From the IMG/VR virus record IMGVR_UViG_3300045988_111421: DNA of 64,000 nt; one strand, 5' to 3'. Position numbers and translations under genes: made by a program. Under the pieces are notes generated by a model. The model did not search any database. It had not been told where the DNA came from and saw only the letters and a program-made list of their open reading frames with translations. This DNA comes from a virus. Positions 1-52,240 of this stretch are shown here, piece by piece. Each line of letters begins with the position of its first letter. Within the stretch, counting starts at the first letter, position 1.

Positions 1-206
1 GATTTTCCAACAAAATTAAGACTTACAGCGTTTTAAAACAGCATAATGTAGGATTTTCCCACAAAATTAAGACTTACAGCGTTTTAAAACAGCATTTTGT
101 AGTTTCTACCAACAAAATTCAATAGATCAGCGTTTTAAAACAGCATAATGTAGGATTTTCCCACAAAATTAAGACTTACAGCGTTTTTAAAACAGTATTC
201 TGTAGG
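1..206. repeat. Four tandem direct repeats of ~51 bp (1-51, 52-103, 104-153, 154-206). Each carries the 10-bp perfect palindrome GTTTTAAAAC within ACAGCGTTTTAAAACAGCA. The array is probably truncated by the window edge.
   Basis: Direct reading. Units 1, 2 and 4 are near-identical (GATTTTCC[C/A]ACAAAATTAAGACTTACAGCGTTTTAAAACAGCAT..TGTAG). Unit 3 diverges in its 5' half but keeps the palindrome core. Confidence 0.85.
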
Positions 207-539: not shown

Positions 540-645
540 GCGGCGCCTTGGGCTAAGGCCTGCGGTTGTAGGTGGAACGTAGGTCGGAGCAGAGCCGGAA
601 CAGTTTATTGTGGAACTAAAAAAATAAAAAGGAGGAGATAGCGAT

Positions 646-726
646 ATGAAAAAGGCATTTAAGATATTTTCTATTATGTTTGTCATAGAAATAGTGCTGA
701 TAGCTATTTTAGATGCTATGGCGTAA
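646..726 (+). CDS. Candidate 26-aa hydrophobic peptide (MKKAFKIFSIMFVIEIVLIAILDAMA).
   Basis: Strong SD AAAAGGAGGAG 8 nt upstream of the ATG. Single predicted TM helix. Below the ORF-track size cut-off. Sits between a GC-rich segment and the tRNA-like/hairpin block. Confidence 0.25.
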   Translation: MKKAFKIFSIMFVIEIVLIAILDAMA

Positions 727-851
727 GTGAGAAAAATTTCTTCATTAATTTTCTTATGCTTTAGACAGAATGCTCCCATCTGCGAAGATCGGAGCATTTG
801 CTTTATGGGATTCATGGTGCAGCAAGTCGGTTCGATTCCGGCGATCTCACA
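727..851 (+). ncRNA. tRNA-like/structured RNA candidate. It has a 5' GTGAGAA that can pair with the 3' ATCTCAC. It has an internal conserved-loop hairpin (769-798). It has a canonical T-arm-like GTCGG-TTCGATT-CCGGC followed by an acceptor-like 3' strand.
   Basis: GGTTCGATTCC T-loop consensus with a 5-bp stem seen directly. No D-arm or anticodon arm could be built by hand. The 3' block is shared with 2074-2108. Confidence 0.2.
769..798 (+). terminator. Conserved-loop hairpin H1: 8-bp stem AATGCTCC/GGAGCATT, loop CATCTGCGAAGATC.
   Basis: Inverted repeat read directly. The loop resembles those of H2-H5 (CTGYGARGAT). Confidence 0.4.
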
Positions 852-874
852 CAACATTAAAATAGGGAAGAACA

Positions 875-1278
875 TGTTAAAAGAAGAATTTGAAGAACTG
901 ATTAAAAGGGAGGTAAACGAAAATCAGTATAAAAACATAGAAACGGCATACGAGGCTTTGCCGGAGTATATGGATAAGATGTATTTAGCAAGTGCTATTT
1001 CAAATGATATTGGGAAAGCTATTAATGTCTTATCGTTTTTAGGATCGCATATAAGCGAGTTAATGGGTTCGATAATAATCGAAAGGCAAAAGGTGGAATC
1101 ATGTGCCTATGATTTAATAAACAAATCGCATGAGGAGGATGACTTGAAAGCAAGAGAGATTGCCGTGCGATTAATAGGAGAGAGGGAAACAGTGGCATAC
1201 ACAGTAAAAGAAGGGCTGCCATTGTGGGAACAAGATAAAAAGTTTATAATAGAATTAATAAAGGAGGATAGAAAATGA
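875..1278 (+). CDS. Hypothetical protein (134 aa from the internal ATG at 875).
   Basis: The ORF track gives 727..1278, but its 5' part overlaps the hairpin/tRNA-like block. MLKEEFEEL begins at 875. Confidence 0.5.
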
Positions 1279-1442
1279 AAGACGGTATTGTATTGCATCC
1301 AGAGCATGGGTTGAATCCATCCATAGAACTATGCATAGTATGCGGTGAAGAGATGGGGATTGCTTTATTAGGGAATAACATCAAAGGGCAGGCGCCGCAT
1401 CATATATGCACGGGAGAAATATGTGACAATTGCAAAAGATAA
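1275..1442 (+). CDS. Small Zn-ribbon protein (55 aa; CIVCGEE...HHICTGEICDNC).
   Basis: ATGA overlap with the upstream stop. GGAGGATAGAAA precedes the ATG. Two CxxC pairs. Below the track cut-off. Confidence 0.35.
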   Translation: MKDGIVLHPEHGLNPSIELCIVCGEEMGIALLGNNIKGQAPHHICTGEICDNCKR

Positions 1443-1621
1443 TAGATGACGGAGGTTGTTTTATTATCGAAGTTGAGGATGGATCAGATCAAAAGAATCC
1501 GTATCGTACAGGGAGATATTGCGCGATAAAGAAAGAAGCAGCAAAGAAAATACTTGGACAGGAGCATAGTATTGTGTACATGGAAAAGTCTGCGTACAGT
1601 CAAATAATACCACAAAAATAA
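1430..1621 (+). CDS. Hypothetical protein (63 aa).
   Basis: ORF in the compact + block. Confidence 0.35.
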   Translation: MQKIIDDGGCFIIEVEDGSDQKNPYRTGRYCAIKKEAAKKILGQEHSIVYMEKSAYSQIIPQK

Positions 1622-1629
1622 AGAAAGAT

Positions 1630-1944
1630 ATGTTTACAAAAGAAGAGCGATTATTCATATGGAAAAAGGTATATGAGATGATTGATAGGTTAGAGGATGG
1701 GGAATACATATGTGTTGCGTTAAGAAATGTAGTGTTTATGTATTTCAAAACACATAAAAATATCTATGAGTTTCGTTCAGACGAAATGGTGAGAATATAT
1801 TTCCCGGAATTGGAGGAGAAGATAAGTATGGCCACAGAACCAGAGGAAACAAGAACGTTTTATGGGTGGTTTGGTTGTCTTAGTCCAGAAACGAAGGAGG
1901 TAAGGCTGAATATTGTGAAAGATATTATAAAAGAATTAGAATAG
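1630..1944 (+). CDS. Hypothetical protein (104 aa).
   Basis: ORF followed by hairpin H2. Confidence 0.5.
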   Translation: MFTKEERLFIWKKVYEMIDRLEDGEYICVALRNVVFMYFKTHKNIYEFRSDEMVRIYFPELEEKISMATEPEETRTFYGWFGCLSPETKEVRLNIVKDIIKELE

Positions 1945-1990
1945 TATTTTTGTTAATCTATTTTATTCATCAAATTAAGTTTTGGGTTTT

Positions 1991-2020
1991 GGCATGTCGG
2001 TTCGTGAGGATAGGCATGCC
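1991..2020 (+). terminator. Conserved-loop hairpin H2: stem GGCATG/CATGCC, loop TCGGTTCGTGAGGATAG.
   Basis: Read directly. Lies downstream of 1630..1944. Confidence 0.4.
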
Positions 2021-2099
2021 TATTTCTGCATCATAGAGGGGATGACGCGGCGTGCCGGTGCGTATGTGCCGGTCCTGGTTCGATTCTGGGCATCTCACA
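2004..2099 (+). ncRNA. tRNA-like/structured RNA candidate. GTGAGGA in the H2 loop can pair with the 3' ATCTCAC. T-arm-like CCTGG-TTCGATT-CTGGG at 2074-2090.
   Basis: Shares the block GGTTCGATTCYGG..ATCTCACA(C)AACAAT(A/T)AAA with 826-858. No complete cloverleaf resolved. Confidence 0.2.
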
Positions 2100-2119
2100 A
2101 ACAATAAAACAAAAAAGTT

Positions 2120-2353
2120 ATGAGAATATATAAGAATGATATTATAAAGGCGTCAGCAATAAGCACCGGAGCCGACAGAGGCGTGTTGCCGTGTTCAATA
2201 ACAGATTCAGGCTTTACGTCTATAGCGGGCGTAATATCGGCTGTTAAGGATAGGTTACCAAACGAAGATCACAAGAAGATGGTTTTTGAAATCTTGAATG
2301 ATACGAAAAAAGAGTACGGAAGATATAATAATTGCGGAACAAAAGTATTGTAA
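2120..2353 (+). CDS. Hypothetical protein (77 aa).
   Basis: ORF. Confidence 0.45.
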   Translation: MRIYKNDIIKASAISTGADRGVLPCSITDSGFTSIAGVISAVKDRLPNEDHKKMVFEILNDTKKEYGRYNNCGTKVL

Positions 2354-2409
2354 TAAAGAGTAGAAAACAATATGTTTATGTAATATTAGTTTTTTTATTT
2401 TTATTGAAA

Positions 2410-2439
2410 GGAGCGCCGGCCTGTGAAGGTATGCGCTCT
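2410..2439 (+). terminator. Conserved-loop hairpin H3: stem GAGCGC/GCGCTC, loop CGGCCTGTGAAGGTAT, then TTTG.
   Basis: Read directly. Confidence 0.4.
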
Positions 2440-2472
2440 TTGTATTTGTATAATGCATAAAACAATAATAAT

Positions 2473-2727
2473 ATGACAGAGAATAGTATAGACGTAAATA
2501 TCGTACCTGTAAAGAATGGTATGAAACGTGTTGTGGTATCATATTACCATTATTCATGCAAGGAGAAAGATCGCATGAGTTCCCAAACGGATTACGTTTG
2601 GGAAACAAAGAATGAAGAAATGTTTAAATACTTTGAGGCCAGGAGGACAAAAGTATTTTATAGTCAGATTCGTGCCATGTGTAGATTCTATGGCAAGAAA
2701 AATGTACGTAAATACAAAAAGTTATGA
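2473..2727 (+). CDS. Hypothetical protein (84 aa).
   Basis: ORF with ATGA overlap to the next gene. Confidence 0.5.
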   Translation: MTENSIDVNIVPVKNGMKRVVVSYYHYSCKEKDRMSSQTDYVWETKNEEMFKYFEARRTKVFYSQIRAMCRFYGKKNVRKYKKL

Positions 2728-3533
2728 TATTAAAAACGACAACCAACGAGTTTTGTTTCATTAACGTAAGTTTCTACGAAACAATAGCAGATCCTCGTCA
2801 TTTCTTTGAACAGGATTATGAAGAGATGCCAGAATATGAGGAGGAATCGGATTTTGATTTTGATTCTTATTGCAATAAGTTTATTCCTTTTGTACAGGAA
2901 TGGGCGAATGAGGTAAGTGAACGCCTTTACGGATATGGCGTGAATAGTATAAAGGTAACATCGGTCGGATATCCGAAAGAATATAATTATGGTACTGATT
3001 GGATGAACGTAGAGGTAGAGTTTTGTGATGAATGGAGGCAAAAGATGTTATCTAACATTAGTAAGATTGTCAATGATGATAAATGCAAGAAGTATGCGGA
3101 GACTAATTACCGGTCGGTATCAGGATACATCTTTTTAGGACCTGAAGATTTAAAGGAATTTGAAAAGGAAATAATAGAAAGAAAGTCGGATTCCGGATAT
3201 GATGTAACAATATTATTAAATATGTATCTAACTTTGGCTTTTGTAAAAGAATTTGGATTTAAAGCCAGAGAAGCATGGAGTGAAATAACAGAATATGCTT
3301 ACGGATGTTTATCGTATTCCGATTTTGCAACAACAGAGATGCTTATACCGGAAGGTTCGGAGCATTTATTCAAAGACATTTACACGGCAAAGGCCGACGA
3401 ATTATATCATCATGTCCTGGATAAATTCGGATGGGCGTGGCGTGATCCGAAATATAAGTCAGAAACAGAATTATGCGCGATGCTAAAGTGGGCAAAAGAA
3501 AAAGGCTTGACCATTGAAGAGTTAAGTATTTAA
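2724..3533 (+). CDS. Hypothetical protein (269 aa).
   Basis: Long ORF. Confidence 0.6.
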   Translation: MILKTTTNEFCFINVSFYETIADPRHFFEQDYEEMPEYEEESDFDFDSYCNKFIPFVQEWANEVSERLYGYGVNSIKVTSVGYPKEYNYGTDWMNVEVEFCDEWRQKMLSNISKIVNDDKCKKYAETNYRSVSGYIFLGPEDLKEFEKEIIERKSDSGYDVTILLNMYLTLAFVKEFGFKAREAWSEITEYAYGCLSYSDFATTEMLIPEGSEHLFKDIYTAKADELYHHVLDKFGWAWRDPKYKSETELCAMLKWAKEKGLTIEELSI

Positions 3534-3546
3534 TTGTTAAACATAA

Positions 3547-3578
3547 GGCAGTAGTGGTGCGTGAGTATAGGTGCTGCC
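3547..3578 (+). terminator. Conserved-loop hairpin H4: stem GGCAG(T)/CTGCC, loop with GCGTGAGTATAG.
   Basis: Read directly. Confidence 0.35.
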
Positions 3579-3596
3579 GTTAAAATATTTTATAAG

Positions 3597-3845
3597 ATGA
3601 AAAAAGAAGAGATTCAAACTATTTTATACACAATCAAAGAAGGAGACAGTATTAAAATCAAAGTACAAGACAAAAGTGGAGAGATAAGACTGCGGGATCA
3701 TGTAAGAAGAGTACAGAAATACGGATACAGGTTTTGTTTGTCTCATTTACATGATGGAATTTTCTATCTGGAGAAGTTGAAAGAAGGGGATAAGGATAAA
3801 TACTATAGAGTAATAAACAGAGGAAATGGAAAGACCGGAGTATAA
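3597..3845 (+). CDS. Hypothetical protein (82 aa from the ATG at 3597).
   Basis: Track ORF 3561..3845 begins inside hairpin H4. The internal start MKKEEIQ is more plausible. Confidence 0.45.
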   Translation: MKKEEIQTILYTIKEGDSIKIKVQDKSGEIRLRDHVRRVQKYGYRFCLSHLHDGIFYLEKLKEGDKDKYYRVINRGNGKTGV

Positions 3846-4119
3846 TAAGCTACGCAAAATGGCTAAGACTACTCCAGGTCTGATAGTGGACGAGGTGCAA
3901 AACATGATGCGTGTATCGCTATACGATAATGGGGAACTTAAGAAGGTGGTAGTAGTAATGAAATGCGATTCTTTTTTACAGTCAAAAAGTAACATAGAAA
4001 AGATAATGTTATTATCATCTTCTATAGAAGATAGAAAAAACAAAGAAAAAAATAAAACAAAATCAGAAAATGAACAGAATAACAAAAATAAGAGAAGAAA
4101 TAGGAGGAGAACAGGTTGA
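3826..4119 (+). CDS. Hypothetical protein with a Lys/Asn-rich C-terminal tail (97 aa).
   Basis: ORF. Overlaps both neighbours. Confidence 0.3.
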   Translation: MERPEYNKLRKMAKTTPGLIVDEVQNMMRVSLYDNGELKKVVVVMKCDSFLQSKSNIEKIMLLSSSIEDRKNKEKNKTKSENEQNNKNKRRNRRRTG

Positions 4120-4453
4120 TTTGACCTTTTACGGGCGCTTTTGCAGCCTTATCGAAGGTGATAGGAAGATAATACTAAGGGCAATAAAAAACGGTCGTAA
4201 AAAAGGCGTAATCGGGGCCATTCAGCCTGGGAGACATGACAGAATTTGGACCACATGGTCTATTGCTTTTGATGATCTGAGGGTAGGGGATACGGTAGAG
4301 TTCAGTACATCTGGAAAATACAATCCCGGATTTCATGCTACGGAAAAGTATGTAGGGTGTGTAGAATGGATAAAAGGGTCGGAATGTGCGATAAAAACCG
4401 GTAAGGGAATAGCAGTAGTATTAATTAAACACATAGAAAGGGTGGTAAAATGA
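4070..4453 (+). CDS. Hypothetical protein (127 aa).
   Basis: ORF. Confidence 0.45.
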   Translation: MNRITKIREEIGGEQVDLTFYGRFCSLIEGDRKIILRAIKNGRKKGVIGAIQPGRHDRIWTTWSIAFDDLRVGDTVEFSTSGKYNPGFHATEKYVGCVEWIKGSECAIKTGKGIAVVLIKHIERVVK

Positions 4454-4734
4454 TGGGGTTGAGAGAATTTGTAGAACTTTTTGACAAGAATGAAGTAAAG
4501 AATTTGTTTAATGCATTGTCTTCATGTATAGAATACGTAAGGATAGATTTGCATGTATTTAATATAGGTGCTCATGTTGCGTGTCTGTACAGTAATGATC
4601 CTGAATTGCTTTCACAGGCAGAAGGTTGTAATGTAAATATGATAATAGAGGTACCCTACTTGTTTGAAGCATTTATGGAATACGCTTCACCGGAACTGAA
4701 AGCTTATTATGATGAACTAACAAAAGAAGTATGA
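4450..4734 (+). CDS. Hypothetical protein (94 aa).
   Basis: ATGA overlaps on both sides. Confidence 0.5.
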   Translation: MMGLREFVELFDKNEVKNLFNALSSCIEYVRIDLHVFNIGAHVACLYSNDPELLSQAEGCNVNMIIEVPYLFEAFMEYASPELKAYYDELTKEV

Positions 4735-5204
4735 AAGAGGAAGTAGAACGGATAAAGAAGTTGGTTGGCATAGATCATAATAGATGGGAGCAGCCTTGTT
4801 CATGTGATAAATGTAAGAACATGTGTAAGGTCCCTTGTATTGGTACGCCAAAAGACATAGAGGCTATCATAGATGCCGGATACGCTGACAGGTTAAAAGA
4901 AACAATGTGGATGGTCGGGTATCTTGCAGTGAAAGAAAAACCAATAGCGATGATCCGGCCAACAGAGAAAGACGGGTGGTGCGCATTCCGCCAGCCAGAC
5001 GGTCTCTGCGAGCTGCATGACCGTGGACTAAAGCCGACTGAAGGAGTTCTGGCTTCTTGTAAGGTGGTTGAAGAAGACGATATTCCAACATACGAGACAT
5101 CCGTACTTCGAGCAGTAGCTCATGAGTGGGTTAAGGTGGAGAACTTTGGAAATATAATGAAGGTCGTTTTTAAATTTTTGCATGAAAATGAACGTAGAAA
5201 ATAA
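4731..5204 (+). CDS. Hypothetical Cys-rich protein (157 aa; CSCDKCKNMCKVPC).
   Basis: ORF. Confidence 0.5.
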   Translation: MKEEVERIKKLVGIDHNRWEQPCSCDKCKNMCKVPCIGTPKDIEAIIDAGYADRLKETMWMVGYLAVKEKPIAMIRPTEKDGWCAFRQPDGLCELHDRGLKPTEGVLASCKVVEEDDIPTYETSVLRAVAHEWVKVENFGNIMKVVFKFLHENERRK

Positions 5205-5592
5205 ATTAGATAAAGTGGTTAATATCCTAAAAGAAAAAGGATTTGTAGTATATAGAAAGGGCGGGAAGGAGCCAGGTGTGTTTTACGCTAAAGAAGGTGA
5301 CAGCCGGATAGGATTCGTTTATCCCAACAACGGATATATATACGACAGGATAAAAATGTGGTCTTTTTCAAGGATATATAAACCACATAAGAAAACCGGG
5401 TCTTCGTGTTTAATGAGCGTCAGCGACGAATTTACGATAGAGAATGCGATTAAGAACATAGAGGATAGACTGTGGGTGAATTATATAAAAGATGGTAACA
5501 GAAAACGACCAGAAGAATATAAAAATATAAGAGAATTTGTTGGTAGCTTCACTAAATTCTACAACTCTGTAGAATTAGTTGAGGTTAAGTAG
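5182..5592 (+). CDS. Hypothetical protein (136 aa).
   Basis: ORF. Confidence 0.5.
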   Translation: MKMNVENKLDKVVNILKEKGFVVYRKGGKEPGVFYAKEGDSRIGFVYPNNGYIYDRIKMWSFSRIYKPHKKTGSSCLMSVSDEFTIENAIKNIEDRLWVNYIKDGNRKRPEEYKNIREFVGSFTKFYNSVELVEVK

Positions 5593-5613
5593 TTTTCCAT
5601 GCGAGTTAGTTGC

Positions 5614-5650
5614 CGGCACTGGTCTGTGAAGATAGGTGCCGTTTTTTTTT
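5614..5650 (+). terminator. Rho-independent-type terminator H5: stem CGGCAC/GTGCCG, loop TGGTCTGTGAAGATAG, followed by T9.
   Basis: GC stem plus T-run, read directly. Confidence 0.6.
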
Positions 5651-5671
5651 ATTCAAGAAAGGAGGACAAAG

Positions 5672-5923
5672 ATGGGAAAAAGAGACAAGAAGATACCTTA
5701 TGAGGTAGTCATACAGGAAAGAAAAAGAGTGGATTTATACGGTAACGTAGTGTATTATATCTATTGGTTTGATAAATATGGGTACAATATCACAAACGAA
5801 TGGAAATTCTGGAGCAAGGGTCCGAAAAAGAAATACGATAGAGTCAATCGTTATCTAACAGATAGTTGGTTGAAGGAATACTGTAAGAATAACAATTTAA
5901 AGATAAGTAGAATAAAGGAATGA
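5672..5923 (+). CDS. Hypothetical protein (83 aa from the ATG at 5672).
   Basis: AGGAGGACAAAG SD before MGKRDKK. The track ORF started inside the terminator. Confidence 0.5.
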   Translation: MGKRDKKIPYEVVIQERKRVDLYGNVVYYIYWFDKYGYNITNEWKFWSKGPKKKYDRVNRYLTDSWLKEYCKNNNLKISRIKE

Positions 5924-36299: not shown

Positions 36300-36346
36300 A
36301 CAACAGTCCCCAACCATACAATAGGCGTACGGTTGGGGACTGTTGT
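36300..36346. terminator. Bidirectional terminator candidate: perfect 16-bp inverted repeat ACAACAGTCCCCAACC / GGTTGGGGACTGTTGT with a 15-nt loop, at the convergence point of the two blocks.
   Basis: Read directly. Lies between the last + gene and the first - gene. Confidence 0.65.
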
Positions 36347-37748: not shown

Positions 37749-37783
37749 ACCGGTTCTCTATCATCTCTGACTGAGAACCGGTA
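37749..37783 (-). terminator. Hairpin with a perfect 10-bp stem ACCGGTTCTC/GAGAACCGGT. On the - strand it is followed by a T-rich run, downstream of the 2137-aa gene.
   Basis: Read directly. Confidence 0.45.
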
Positions 37784-44392: not shown

Positions 44393-44422
44393 AAGCCATC
44401 TAACTTCTCAGTCTGATGGCTT
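44393..44422 (-). terminator. Hairpin AAGCCATC/GATGGCTT with a 14-nt loop. T-rich downstream on the - strand.
   Basis: Read directly. Confidence 0.4.
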
Positions 44423-44474
44423 AAAAATGATATGAAAAAAAATTATAATCTGATGAAAAATCGTCAAGTTCAGC

Positions 44475-51562: not shown

Positions 51563-52240
51563 GGCTGAGTTTGTTTCCGATAAAATGGAAGGATTTTCAG
51601 TAAAAACGGAAATATAATATACAACGAGTAGTTTTCCCCATTTATGGGGAAAAATTGATAATCAGCAACTTTCGCTTTTCCTTTTTTGGGTAAAGCGCTG
51701 TAAATCAAAACAGGATCCGCATCACTGCGAATCCTGCCTCAACTAATCTAAACTAAAATACCATGAAAAACTTTTCCCTACTAAAACTAAAGAACGAACA
51801 AATGTATGAAAATACATGCTTTTCACAAAGAATCCGTATCCTGTTCTTTGGTATGGTTAAGTACATGGGATATAGTTCTGATACTTAATCCGGTTTGATT
51901 TTGTATCAGATTATAAATATAGGATTTTGAAACTACAGTTCTTAATTGACCTAAATCATTCATAATGTTTTTATACATAAGATGAATGCTGTTGTTACAT
52001 TTGATGGTACTGATTCTCATTTCCTACTGTTATTAGTTACGTTCGGTTCTTACTTTTCCCTATTTTCTATAATCCCTTCCTGAAACTAATATCGCAAACT
52101 TAACAAAAATAATTCATAAACAATGAAAATCTAACTTTTCTTGTATGTTATTGATATACGTACATATATGAGAAAAGTGAGACTTTCACAAGCCTCACTT
52201 TCCAAATCGTAATTATGAAAAAACTATATATATACAAAAA
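51563..52240. other. A 680-bp non-coding gap inside the - strand block. Contains hairpins TTTTCCCCA-TTTA-TGGGGAAAA, GGATCCGCA-TCAC-TGCGAATCC and AGTGAG-n12-CTCACT.
   Basis: No ORF over 66 codons in operon orientation. Inverted repeats read directly. Confidence 0.5.

What the first reader, a model, noticed from the sequence alone, without database searches (positions are those of the whole stretch)
769..5650. Family of five intergenic hairpins sharing a CTG(T/C)GA(A/G)G(A/T)AT(A) loop
H1 769-798, H2 1991-2020, H3 2410-2439, H4 3547-3578 and H5 5614-5650 each lie after a gene and before the next start. Each has a different 6-8-bp GC stem but a similar 14-17-nt loop (tggtCTGTGAAGATAG, cggcCTGTGAAGGTAT, CGTGAGTATAG, CGTGAGGATAG, CTGCGAAGATC). 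Only H5 has a clear U-tract. A conserved loop with variable stems suggests a protein- or RNA-recognised element (processing site, antitermination or regulatory hairpin) rather than generic terminators.
Basis: seen in the sequence. Interest (0 to 1): 0.5.

Follow-up and report, generated by a model that had tools for sequence, protein, structure and literature searches.

The report
Conserved-apex RNA hairpins in gut phages
The five hairpins are real members of a widespread family of RNA hairpins in phages of gut Bacteroidales, which sit at gene ends as terminators or a few bases upstream of tRNA genes and keep a near-invariant tip whose binding partner is unknown.

Summary
All five hairpins exist at the stated coordinates on the coding strand. 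It folds into a 4-bp inner helix capped by a GNGA tetraloop, separated from the variable outer stem by a purine•A mismatch next to a conserved G•U pair. The window is a crAss-like gut phage, 95% identical to csAssE-Sib. It holds two more full members on the minus strand, and the rest of that genome holds at least five more. The same tip occurs in crAss001 and in at least 120 IMG/VR stretches, with dozens of different, always complementary, outer stems. It appears in two settings: followed by a U-tract, or 1-12 nt upstream of a tRNA gene with no U-tract. In the window, H1 and H2 are followed by tRNA-like minihelices. Best reading: these are hairpins at transcript 3' ends, formed by intrinsic termination or by RNase P cleavage, and the tip is a recognition feature for an unidentified factor. 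No Rfam family matches. I rate it a new variant of a known kind, of moderate interest.

The parts
768..799 (+). H1: GAAUGCUCC-C-AUCU-GCGA-AGAU-C-GGAGCAUUU. It has a C•C mismatch and an A-U pair here; most relatives have G•U. The tail is UGCUUUAU. It lies 7 nt upstream of tRNA-like minihelix TL1.
   Evidence: (31.5 bits)
806..850 (+). TL1, a tRNA-like minihelix. Acceptor UGGGAUU/GAUCUCA, a 13-nt linker, T-arm GUCGG-UUCGAUU-CCGGC, discriminator C. ARAGORN does not call it.
1991..2020 (+). H2: GGCAUGUC-G-GUUC-GUGA-GGAU-A-GGCAUGCC. The tail is UAUUUCUG, which is a run of U7 in the divergent relative L162. It lies 17 nt upstream of TL2.
   Evidence: (34.9 bits)
2038..2098 (+). TL2, a tRNA-like element. 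Acceptor GGGGAUG/CAUCUCA, a variable hairpin that is deleted in some relatives, T-arm CCUGG-UUCGAUU-CUGGG, discriminator C.
   Evidence: weak match to Deinococcus Y RNA, E=1.3
2408..2441 (+). H3: AAGGAGCGC-CG-GCCU-GUGA-AGGU-AU-GCGCUCUUU. The tail is GUAUUUGUAU.
   Evidence: 34.9 bits
3547..3578 (+). H4: GGCAGUA-GUG-GUGC-GUGA-GUAU-AGG-UGCUGCC. It has no U-tract. The next ATG is 19 nt downstream.
   Evidence: (32.1 bits)
5614..5650 (+). H5: CGGCACU-G-GUCU-GUGA-AGAU-A-GGUGCCG followed by U9. This is the canonical apex UGGUCUGUGAAGAUAGG.
   Evidence: (33.4 bits)
37749..37782 (-). M2: ACCGGUUCUC-A-GUCA-GAGA-UGAU-A-GAGAACCGGU followed by UUCUUUUAU. It lies downstream of the 2137-aa virion protein gene.
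   Evidence: (35.6 bits)
44393..44422 (-). M1: AAGCCAUC-A-GACU-GAGA-AGUU-A-GAUGGCUU followed by UAUUUUCU. A Bacteroidetes-type -7 box, TACCTTTG, follows.
   Evidence: (35.7 bits)
52171..52203 (-). Weak relative. A continuous helix ending GCUU-GUGA-AAGU, which keeps the G•U pair but has no mismatch, followed by UUUUCU.
   Evidence: (18.2 bits)

Best explanation
The hairpins are transcribed RNA elements of a family found in many phages of Bacteroidales.

**Anatomy (shown).** From base to tip:
- a freely variable 6-9-bp basal helix
- a closing C-G or U•G pair
- a purine•A mismatch (rarely C•C)
- a G•U wobble
- a U-A pair
- two covarying pairs
- a GNGA tetraloop, mostly GUGA

**Function (inferred).** The hairpin sits at the 3' end of an RNA.
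- Where a U-tract follows (H5, H3, M1, M2, and more weakly H1 and H2), it acts as an intrinsic terminator of graded strength inside long same-strand gene blocks.
- Where a tRNA or a tRNA-like minihelix follows within 1-17 nt (H1 and H2 here, tRNA clusters elsewhere), RNase P cleavage at the 5' end of the tRNA(-like) would leave the upstream RNA ending in the hairpin plus a short tail.
- In both cases the hairpin protects that end.

**Recognition (inferred).** The near-invariant apex, with a conserved wobble and mismatch, is a recognition feature for a trans-acting protein or RNase that has not been identified.
For: **Structure.**
- 96.9% of cells are paired, and 10 of 12 pairs change on both sides among 16 paralogous copies. 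Slid controls give 32-42% paired.
- A second set of 55 distinct copies gives the same result.

**RNA-level and sense-strand specific.**
- G•U outnumbers A•C by 17 to 1 in outer pairs 2-6 of 39 unique hairpins.
- All 200 hits in 41 related loci lie on the gene strand.
- Population variants keep the pairing through compensatory changes, and the loop stays GNGA.

**Conserved apex.** G•U in 14/16 copies, U-A in 13/16, C-G in 13/16.

**Terminator setting.** Tails are U-rich, typically 5-9 U in the 10 nt after the hairpin in most copies. Hairpins lie 14-136 nt after stop codons.

**tRNA setting.**
- crAss001 has a single strong copy, 6 nt upstream of tRNA-Glu, with no U-tract.
- csAssE-Sib has copies 5 and 7 nt upstream of tRNA-Arg and tRNA-Met.
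- 24 of 63 unique IMG/VR contexts have a tRNA starting 1-12 nt downstream.

**Specific to phages of Bacteroidales.**
- At least 120 exact 17-mer stretches in IMG/VR against 23 in 596 Gb of genomes.
- About 13 of those 23 genome hits form a hairpin, and all but two of these lie in Bacteroidales contigs.
- The remaining hits, nearly all from other phyla, have no outer stem and serve as chance controls.
Against: - No transcript 3' ends were measured.
- H4, and several copies in other phages, have neither a U-tract nor a tRNA downstream.
- Many other good terminator-like hairpins in the same genome lack the module, so it is not needed for termination.
- A hairpin 1-8 nt upstream of a tRNA could equally be a 5'-leader element of the downstream RNA.
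- No binding factor was identified.
- The apex statistics are biased, because those loci were chosen by an exact apex match.
Confidence: 0.5

Rival explanations
1. They are ordinary intrinsic terminators. The shared apex reflects only the stability of GNRA tetraloops and common descent of duplicated terminators, and nothing recognises it.
For: U-tracts follow many copies. A Bacteroides sRNA terminator in Rfam has the same C-GUGA-G tip (BTnc231). GNRA and UUCG loops are known to be common in terminators (general knowledge).
Against: The G•U wobble and purine•A mismatch are conserved at fixed positions while the stems are completely different. The apex is identical in crAss001 and csAssE-Sib, whose TROVE proteins are only 25% identical. 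24 of 63 contexts abut a tRNA and have no U-tract. Other terminator-like hairpins in the same genome lack the module.
Confidence: 0.15
2. The apex is an operator for an RNA-binding protein that regulates expression. The protein could be an antiterminator or attenuator acting at leaky terminators, or the phage's own Ro60/TROVE protein, which binds helices that carry a short 3' tail.
For: A short helix with a mismatch and a tetraloop is a typical protein operator shape, as in MS2 and lambda boxB (general knowledge). Terminator strength varies between orthologous copies. csAssE-Sib and crAss001 both encode TROVE proteins. One family copy lies directly after the csAssE-Sib TROVE gene. tRNA-like RNAs accompany both H1/H2 and the TROVE loci. 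The apex UGGUCUGUGAAGAUAGG loosely resembles the Ro-contacted GGUCCGA / GNCGAA(N)G motif of Y RNAs (the resemblance is my own comparison).
Against: No Y RNA family matches at Rfam thresholds. The Y-RNA motif lies in a stem formed by the RNA's 5' and 3' ends, not in a hairpin tip. No boxA-like partner or N-like protein was looked for. Co-occurrence of the motif with TROVE across genomes was not tested. The window itself holds no TROVE gene.
Confidence: 0.2
3. The hairpin belongs to the downstream RNA. It would be a 5'-leader structure that guides or times RNase P processing of the tRNA(-like) that follows, or that stabilises the 5' end of the downstream message.
For: The spacing to the next tRNA is tight, 1-8 nt in most cases. 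The hairpins also lie 19-55 nt upstream of start codons.
Against: U-tracts directly after the hairpin fit termination better than a leader. The distance to start codons is not fixed. No promoter motif lies at a fixed distance upstream; the enriched TTTCAT lies 0-30 nt away.
Confidence: 0.1
4. They are RNase III processing sites, like the intercistronic hairpins of T7 early mRNA.
For: They are intergenic hairpins with an internal mismatch in a long polycistronic gene block.
Against: The helix is only 13-14 bp in total, well short of the roughly 20 bp of T7-type sites. The conserved part is the tip, not a central internal loop.
Confidence: 0.05
5. They are single-stranded DNA hairpin promoters for the virion RNA polymerase, as in phage N4, and start transcription a few bases downstream.
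For: Hairpins lie 1-8 nt upstream of tRNA 5' ends and upstream of genes. The crAss-like virion polymerase transcribes denatured DNA, and its promoters are unknown.
Against: G•U exceeds A•C by 17 to 1 on the sense strand, so the template-strand hairpin would carry C•A mismatches. U-tracts follow many copies. Copies occur in late-gene regions next to host-type -7 boxes. The helix is 13 bp with a 4-nt loop, unlike the 5-7 bp and 3-nt loop of N4.
Confidence: 0.03

Closest known systems
Rho-independent (intrinsic) terminators with GNRA tetraloops
   Same: A GC-containing hairpin after a stop codon, co-oriented with the gene, followed by a U-rich tail in many copies, with a stable tetraloop.
   Different: The apex is sequence-conserved, with a G•U pair and a purine•A mismatch at fixed positions. 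A large share of copies have no U-tract and instead abut a tRNA. Other terminator-like hairpins in the same genome lack the module.
C(UUCG)G intercistronic hairpins of phage T4 (Tuerk et al. 1988, from memory)
   Same: A family of intergenic phage hairpins with variable stems that share one extra-stable tetraloop.
   Different: Here conservation extends 5-6 positions down each side of the helix and includes non-Watson-Crick pairs. The loop is GNGA rather than UUCG.
Lambda/P22 boxB (N-utilisation hairpins)
   Same: A short helix capped by a GNRA-type fold and recognised through its tip. It is a phage early-region element.
   Different: boxB is a 5-bp stem with a pentaloop. It has one or two copies per genome, is paired with boxA, and is not itself a terminator. 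Here there are at least 14 copies per genome, often with U-tracts or next to tRNAs.
T7 early-mRNA RNase III sites
   Same: Intercistronic hairpins with an internal mismatch that leave a protective hairpin at the 3' end of the upstream message.
   Different: The helix is too short, and the conserved feature is apical.
Y RNAs / YrlA (ligands of Ro60/TROVE)
   Same: The phage lineage encodes TROVE. tRNA-like modules sit beside H1 and H2. There is a loose resemblance to the GGUCCGA motif.
   Different: There is no Rfam match. The topology differs (hairpin tip versus terminal stem), and the element is not next to the TROVE gene in the window.
Theta (HDV-like) ribozymes next to gut-phage tRNAs (PMC10879173)
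   Same: A small structured RNA tightly linked to tRNA genes in gut phages.
   Different: Theta ribozymes are double-pseudoknotted, and their cleavage site lies within 5 nt of the associated tRNA. This element is a plain hairpin 1-12 nt upstream of the next tRNA.

Membership tests
Intrinsic terminator | Stable hairpin directly followed by a U-tract | tested here: inconclusive
   Met for H5 (U9), M1, M2 and H3. Weakly met for H1 and H2. Not met for H4 or for the tRNA-adjacent copies.
Intrinsic terminator | Located downstream of, and co-oriented with, a gene | tested here: met
   Hairpins lie 14-136 nt after stop codons. All copies are on the gene strand.
Intrinsic terminator | RNA 3' ends form there in vivo or in vitro | not testable with these tools
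   No transcript data are available.
Any Rfam family (release 15) | Covariance-model score at or above the gathering threshold | tested here: not met
   No hits in the window at gathering thresholds. Only sub-threshold chance-level matches appear in E-value mode.
T7-type RNase III site | About 20 bp of double-stranded RNA with a central internal loop | tested here: not met
   13-14 bp in total with a 1x1 to 3x3 mismatch 4 bp from the loop.
N4-type hairpin promoter | Hairpin of 5-7 bp with a 3-nt loop, formed on the template strand | tested here: not met
   The helix is 13 bp with a 4-nt loop. G•U exceeds A•C by 17 to 1 on the sense strand, which means the template strand would be mismatched.
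REP / IS200 / attC-type DNA hairpins | Conserved stem or base sequence with a variable tip; recognised as DNA | tested here: not met
   The pattern is the opposite: a variable base and a conserved tip. The wobble bias points to RNA. Gene-content breakpoints between relatives do not fall at the hairpins.
Y RNA / YrlA | Ro-binding stem formed by the 5' and 3' ends, plus a tRNA-like domain, encoded near rsr/TROVE | tested here: not met
   No Y RNA family reaches threshold. There is only a weak E=1.3 match of TL2 to the Deinococcus Y RNA. The TROVE gene is not in the window.
Lambda-type nut site (boxA + boxB) | boxA partner sequence and an N-like arginine-rich protein | not tested
   Not searched for. 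The copy number and the U-tracts argue against membership.
tRNA (for TL1 and TL2) | Cloverleaf with D and anticodon arms | tested here: not met
   ARAGORN finds no tRNA. The Rfam tRNA model does not match. Only the acceptor and T-arm are present.

The most novel reading that the evidence does not exclude
The hairpin apex is the binding site of a phage-encoded RNA-binding protein. The best candidate is the TROVE/Ro60 protein carried by these crAss-like phages. Together with the tRNA-like minihelices, the hairpin would form a phage Ro/Y-RNA-style system that marks, processes or protects the 3' ends of phage transcripts and tRNA precursors.
Probability: 0.1. Interest if true: 0.8.

Novelty: new variant of a known kind. 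Interest (0 to 1): 0.55.

Why it matters
crAss-like phages are among the most abundant viruses of the human gut, yet their RNA biology is almost unknown. In phi14:2, the crAss-like phage studied so far, early transcripts made by the virion polymerase share no detectable upstream motif.

This finding defines a short RNA element that is easy to search for. It marks gene ends and tRNA boundaries in many of these phages, and it keeps a wobble pair and a mismatch that a plain terminator would not need.

It therefore offers a concrete handle for several things:
- finding a new RNA-protein interaction
- annotating transcription units and tRNA processing in uncultured phage genomes
- testing, in the culturable phage crAss001, how phage transcripts are ended and stabilised

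If the element proves to be only a terminator design, it is still a useful annotation signal.

Tried and rejected
- **Known RNA families.** Rfam at gathering and E-value thresholds, and ARAGORN, found nothing that explains the hairpins.
- **K-turn or K-loop, sarcin-ricin/bulged-G motif, SRP helix 8, group II domain V, tRNA D-arm.** I compared these by eye. The family has equal strand lengths and Watson-Crick covariation where those motifs need non-canonical pairs or bulges, so I rejected them. This is inference, not a tool result.
- **Mobile promoter/stem-loop cassettes, like the PeSL elements of T4-type phages.** Gene-content breakpoints between relatives fall at gene starts (window about 862, 1257, 2103-2111, 2341-2360), not at the hairpins.
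- **Pairing of the upstream TTTCAT motif with the loop.** TTTCAT is the same whether the loop is GUGA, GCGA or GAGA, so there is no covariation.
- **Alternative pairing of the H1/H2 apex with the AUCUCAC tail after the tRNA-like elements.** This is possible on paper, but it competes with the acceptor-like stem and shows no covariation. I did not pursue it.
- **Stop-codon recoding in the minus-strand block.** There is no gain in ORF length.
- **GC-rich patch at 541-598.** It folds no better than shuffles, z = 0.13.
- **Theta ribozymes.** They have a different fold and sit on a different side of the tRNA.
- **p-crAssphage.** It could not be fetched: the accession is not in the collection.
- **phi14:2.** There is no strong family member in its first 12 kb.
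- **First terminator scan script.** It timed out and was rewritten.

Full report
**What is there.** The five hairpins lie on the + strand at 768-799, 1991-2020, 2408-2441, 3547-3578 and 5614-5641, the last followed by T9. Each lies after a stop codon and before the next start. Folded alone, each gives one dominant hairpin of -16 to -19 kcal/mol, 3-4 sd better than dinucleotide shuffles. It is a 4-bp inner helix capped by a GNRA tetraloop (GUGA four times, GCGA once). A small internal loop, most often a single G•A mismatch, separates it from the outer stem. The inner helix differs between copies but always pairs: AUCU/AGAU, GUUC/GGAU, GCCU/AGGU, GUGC/GUAU, GUCU/AGAU.

**More than chance.** A scan for this architecture (GNRA, 4 bp, 1-3 nt internal loop, at least 6 bp outer stem) finds 12 sites in the window. 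200 dinucleotide shuffles give 2.1 +/- 1.6, maximum 7. The scan also found two full members on the minus strand, at 44393-44422 and 37749-37782, co-oriented with the minus-strand genes. The seven copies align without gaps. A covariance model built from them scores these same seven at 31-36 bits. The next best hits score 19 and 18 bits.

**Where the window comes from.** The window is 95% identical to phage csAssE-Sib (OR575929, 151 kb, human gut). It encodes giant virion proteins typical of crAss-like phages. About 190 near-identical IMG/VR contigs exist. All five hairpins are kept in them, always on the gene strand. Changes preserve pairing, for example AAUGCUCC/GGAGCAUU to AGUGCUCC/GGAGCACU, and the loops stay GNGA. 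More divergent relatives, with 59-76% protein identity in a neighbouring gene, carry new copies. These have new outer stems but the same apex, mostly followed by clear U-tracts.

**The family across the rest of the genome.** The rest of csAssE-Sib holds further copies:
- one directly after its Ro60/TROVE gene, followed by U7
- one 7 nt upstream of tRNA-Met
- one 5 nt upstream of tRNA-Arg, with no U-tract

Across 16 paralogous copies, 96.9% of cells pair and 10 of 12 pairs change on both sides. Three pairs are nearly fixed: C-G (13/16), G•U (14/16) and U-A (13/16), flanking an unpaired purine and an A. The consensus is 5'-N8-R-GUNN-GNGA-NNAU-A-N8.

**Beyond this phage.** crAss001, a cultured crAss-like phage of another lineage, has exactly one strong match: GACUAUCU-G-GUCU-GUGA-AGAU-A-GGAUAGUC. 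It sits in the tRNA cluster, 6 nt upstream of tRNA-Glu, and is followed by AAAAUG, not U.

An exact search for the 17-mer apex TGGTCTGTGAAGATAGG found at least 120 stretches in IMG/VR. They carry more than 25 different outer stems, all complementary.

In 596 Gb of bacterial and archaeal genomes the same 17-mer occurs only 23 times. About 13 of these form a hairpin, and all but two lie in Bacteroidales contigs; one of the two is a 12-tRNA contig labelled Spirochaetia. The remaining hits, nearly all from other phyla, have no outer stem and act as a built-in chance control.

Scanning 53 of the IMG/VR loci with the model gave 63 unique hairpin contexts:
- 24 with a tRNA (Arg, Glu, Ser, Asp, Gln) starting 1-12 nt downstream
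- 18 with a U-tract
- 21 others, several of which look like uncalled tRNAs or tRNA-like elements

Some phages have arrays of tRNA-hairpin-tRNA-hairpin. In the outer stems G•U pairs outnumber A•C by 17 to 1, so the sense strand is the one that folds, as RNA.

**The window again.** H1 and H2 are followed, at 7 and 17 nt, by tRNA-like minihelices: TL1 at 806-850 and TL2 at 2038-2098. Each has an acceptor-like stem, a canonical T-arm (UUCGAUU loop) and a discriminator C, but no D or anticodon arm. ARAGORN and Rfam do not call them. Their T-stems vary between relatives in ways that keep pairing, and a third paralogue lies just outside the window. H1 and H2 therefore repeat the "hairpin then tRNA" arrangement seen in tRNA clusters, with degenerate tRNAs that keep just the parts RNase P needs. 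The RNase P requirement is general knowledge.

**Most likely mechanism.**
- Shown: a conserved, sense-strand RNA hairpin with a fixed apex, in two recurring settings.
- Inferred: in both settings the hairpin ends up at the 3' end of an RNA with a short tail. This happens either by intrinsic termination at the U-tract or by RNase P cleavage at the 5' end of the following tRNA(-like). The hairpin protects that end.
- The uneven U-tracts of H1-H4, and the stronger tracts at orthologous sites in relatives, fit leaky terminators inside long gene blocks.
- Termination does not explain the conserved G•U and purine•A. Many other terminator-like hairpins in the same genome lack them. I therefore infer a recognition role for an unknown factor.

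**Rivals.**
- A plain-terminator reading fails on the tRNA-adjacent copies and on the apex conservation.
- An operator reading, including binding by the phage's own Ro60/TROVE protein, cannot be excluded and is the most novel possibility. Both csAssE-Sib and crAss001 encode TROVE. tRNA-like RNAs sit beside TROVE in both phages. Y RNAs are tRNA mimics with a 5' GNCGAA(N)G motif. Against this, no Y RNA model matches and the topology differs.
- A 5'-leader role for the downstream RNA, RNase III sites, and N4-like DNA hairpin promoters are less likely, for the reasons given under each rival.

**Comparison with known systems and novelty.** The element works like an intrinsic terminator or 3' stabiliser. 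As a family it recalls the shared-tetraloop intercistronic hairpins of T4. It is not a member of any Rfam family tested, nor of the boxB, RNase III-site, REP/attC or N4-promoter classes. The literature searches I ran found no description of it, but those searches cover open-access papers only. I rate it a new variant of a known kind.

Noticed in passing
window 806-850 and 2038-2098 (+): Two tRNA-like minihelices with an acceptor-like stem and a canonical T-arm but no D or anticodon arm, directly after H1 and H2. They share the tail AUCUCACA(C)AACAWUAAAA. They are conserved in about 190 related contigs, and their T-stem changes keep pairing. TL2 gives a weak match to the Deinococcus Y RNA (E=1.3).
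   Followed up: partly
L076 about 1485-1600 and many other loci, about 1 kb upstream of window position 1: A third paralogous tRNA-like element (GGUUGU/GCAACC acceptor, UCCGG-UUCGAUU-CCGGA T-arm). Its inserted arm, AUCU-CUAUA-GGAU-AGG, resembles the apex of the hairpin family and covaries between contigs.
   Followed up: partly
L165 23091-24725 (csAssE-Sib) and L167 46870-48288 (crAss001 gp96): Both crAss-like phages encode Ro60/TROVE proteins that are 25% identical to each other. Downstream of the crAss001 gene lie a tRNA with an 82-nt insert (Rfam tRNA 46.6 bits, L167 46453-46596, minus strand) and an acceptor/T-arm minihelix with a 103-nt insert. These are candidate Y-RNA-like partners. An unannotated T-arm lies at L165 about 22629, upstream of the csAssE-Sib gene.
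   Followed up: partly
L311 about 1774-1850 (phi14:2, intergenic between gp004 and gp005): A T-arm (GAAGG-UUCGAAU-CCUUC) with a possible acceptor stem UGUUGGU/ACCAGUG. It appears to lie in one of the two intergenic regions (g004-g005, g005-g006) that Drobysheva et al. report as transcribed more highly than most genes; the gene numbering was not cross-checked. tRNA-like RNAs in such regions may be common in crAss-like phages.
   Followed up: partly
window 1-206: Four tandem copies of a 51-bp unit (81% matches). Each holds the near-palindrome CAGCGTTTTAAAACAGC. The array lies just upstream of the first small ORF. It could be iterons or a promoter array.
   Followed up: no
10-45 nt upstream of the hairpins: window 745-751, 1966-1972, 5594-5601, 44437-44455 (-), and many loci: The motif TTTYCAT(A/G) is enriched upstream of family hairpins. 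TTTCAT occurs in 10 of 36 unique contexts against 0.63 expected. Its distance from the hairpin varies from 0 to 30 nt. It shows no covariation with the loop, and its function is unexplained.
   Followed up: partly
window 631-646, 1260-1277, 5657-5674; 44363 (-): Strong Shine-Dalgarno-like GGAGG sequences precede several small genes, although the host is inferred to be Bacteroidales, which make little use of them. Bacteroidetes-type -7 boxes (TACCTTTG) follow M1 and the terminator of the TROVE gene.
   Followed up: no
window 863-1256, about 2103-2111, 2341-2360, 613-631: Presence/absence gene cassettes between closely related contigs. The breakpoints fall at gene-start leaders, just after the tails of the tRNA-like elements.
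   Followed up: yes
window 36303-36343: A hairpin that scores weakly on both strands, located between the convergent plus-strand and minus-strand gene blocks. It is probably a bidirectional terminator.
   Followed up: no
L164/L165 (csAssE-Sib record, outside the window): The annotated genome also carries six tRNAs, a diversity-generating retroelement, two TnpB genes and a polynucleotide kinase/phosphatase.
   Followed up: no
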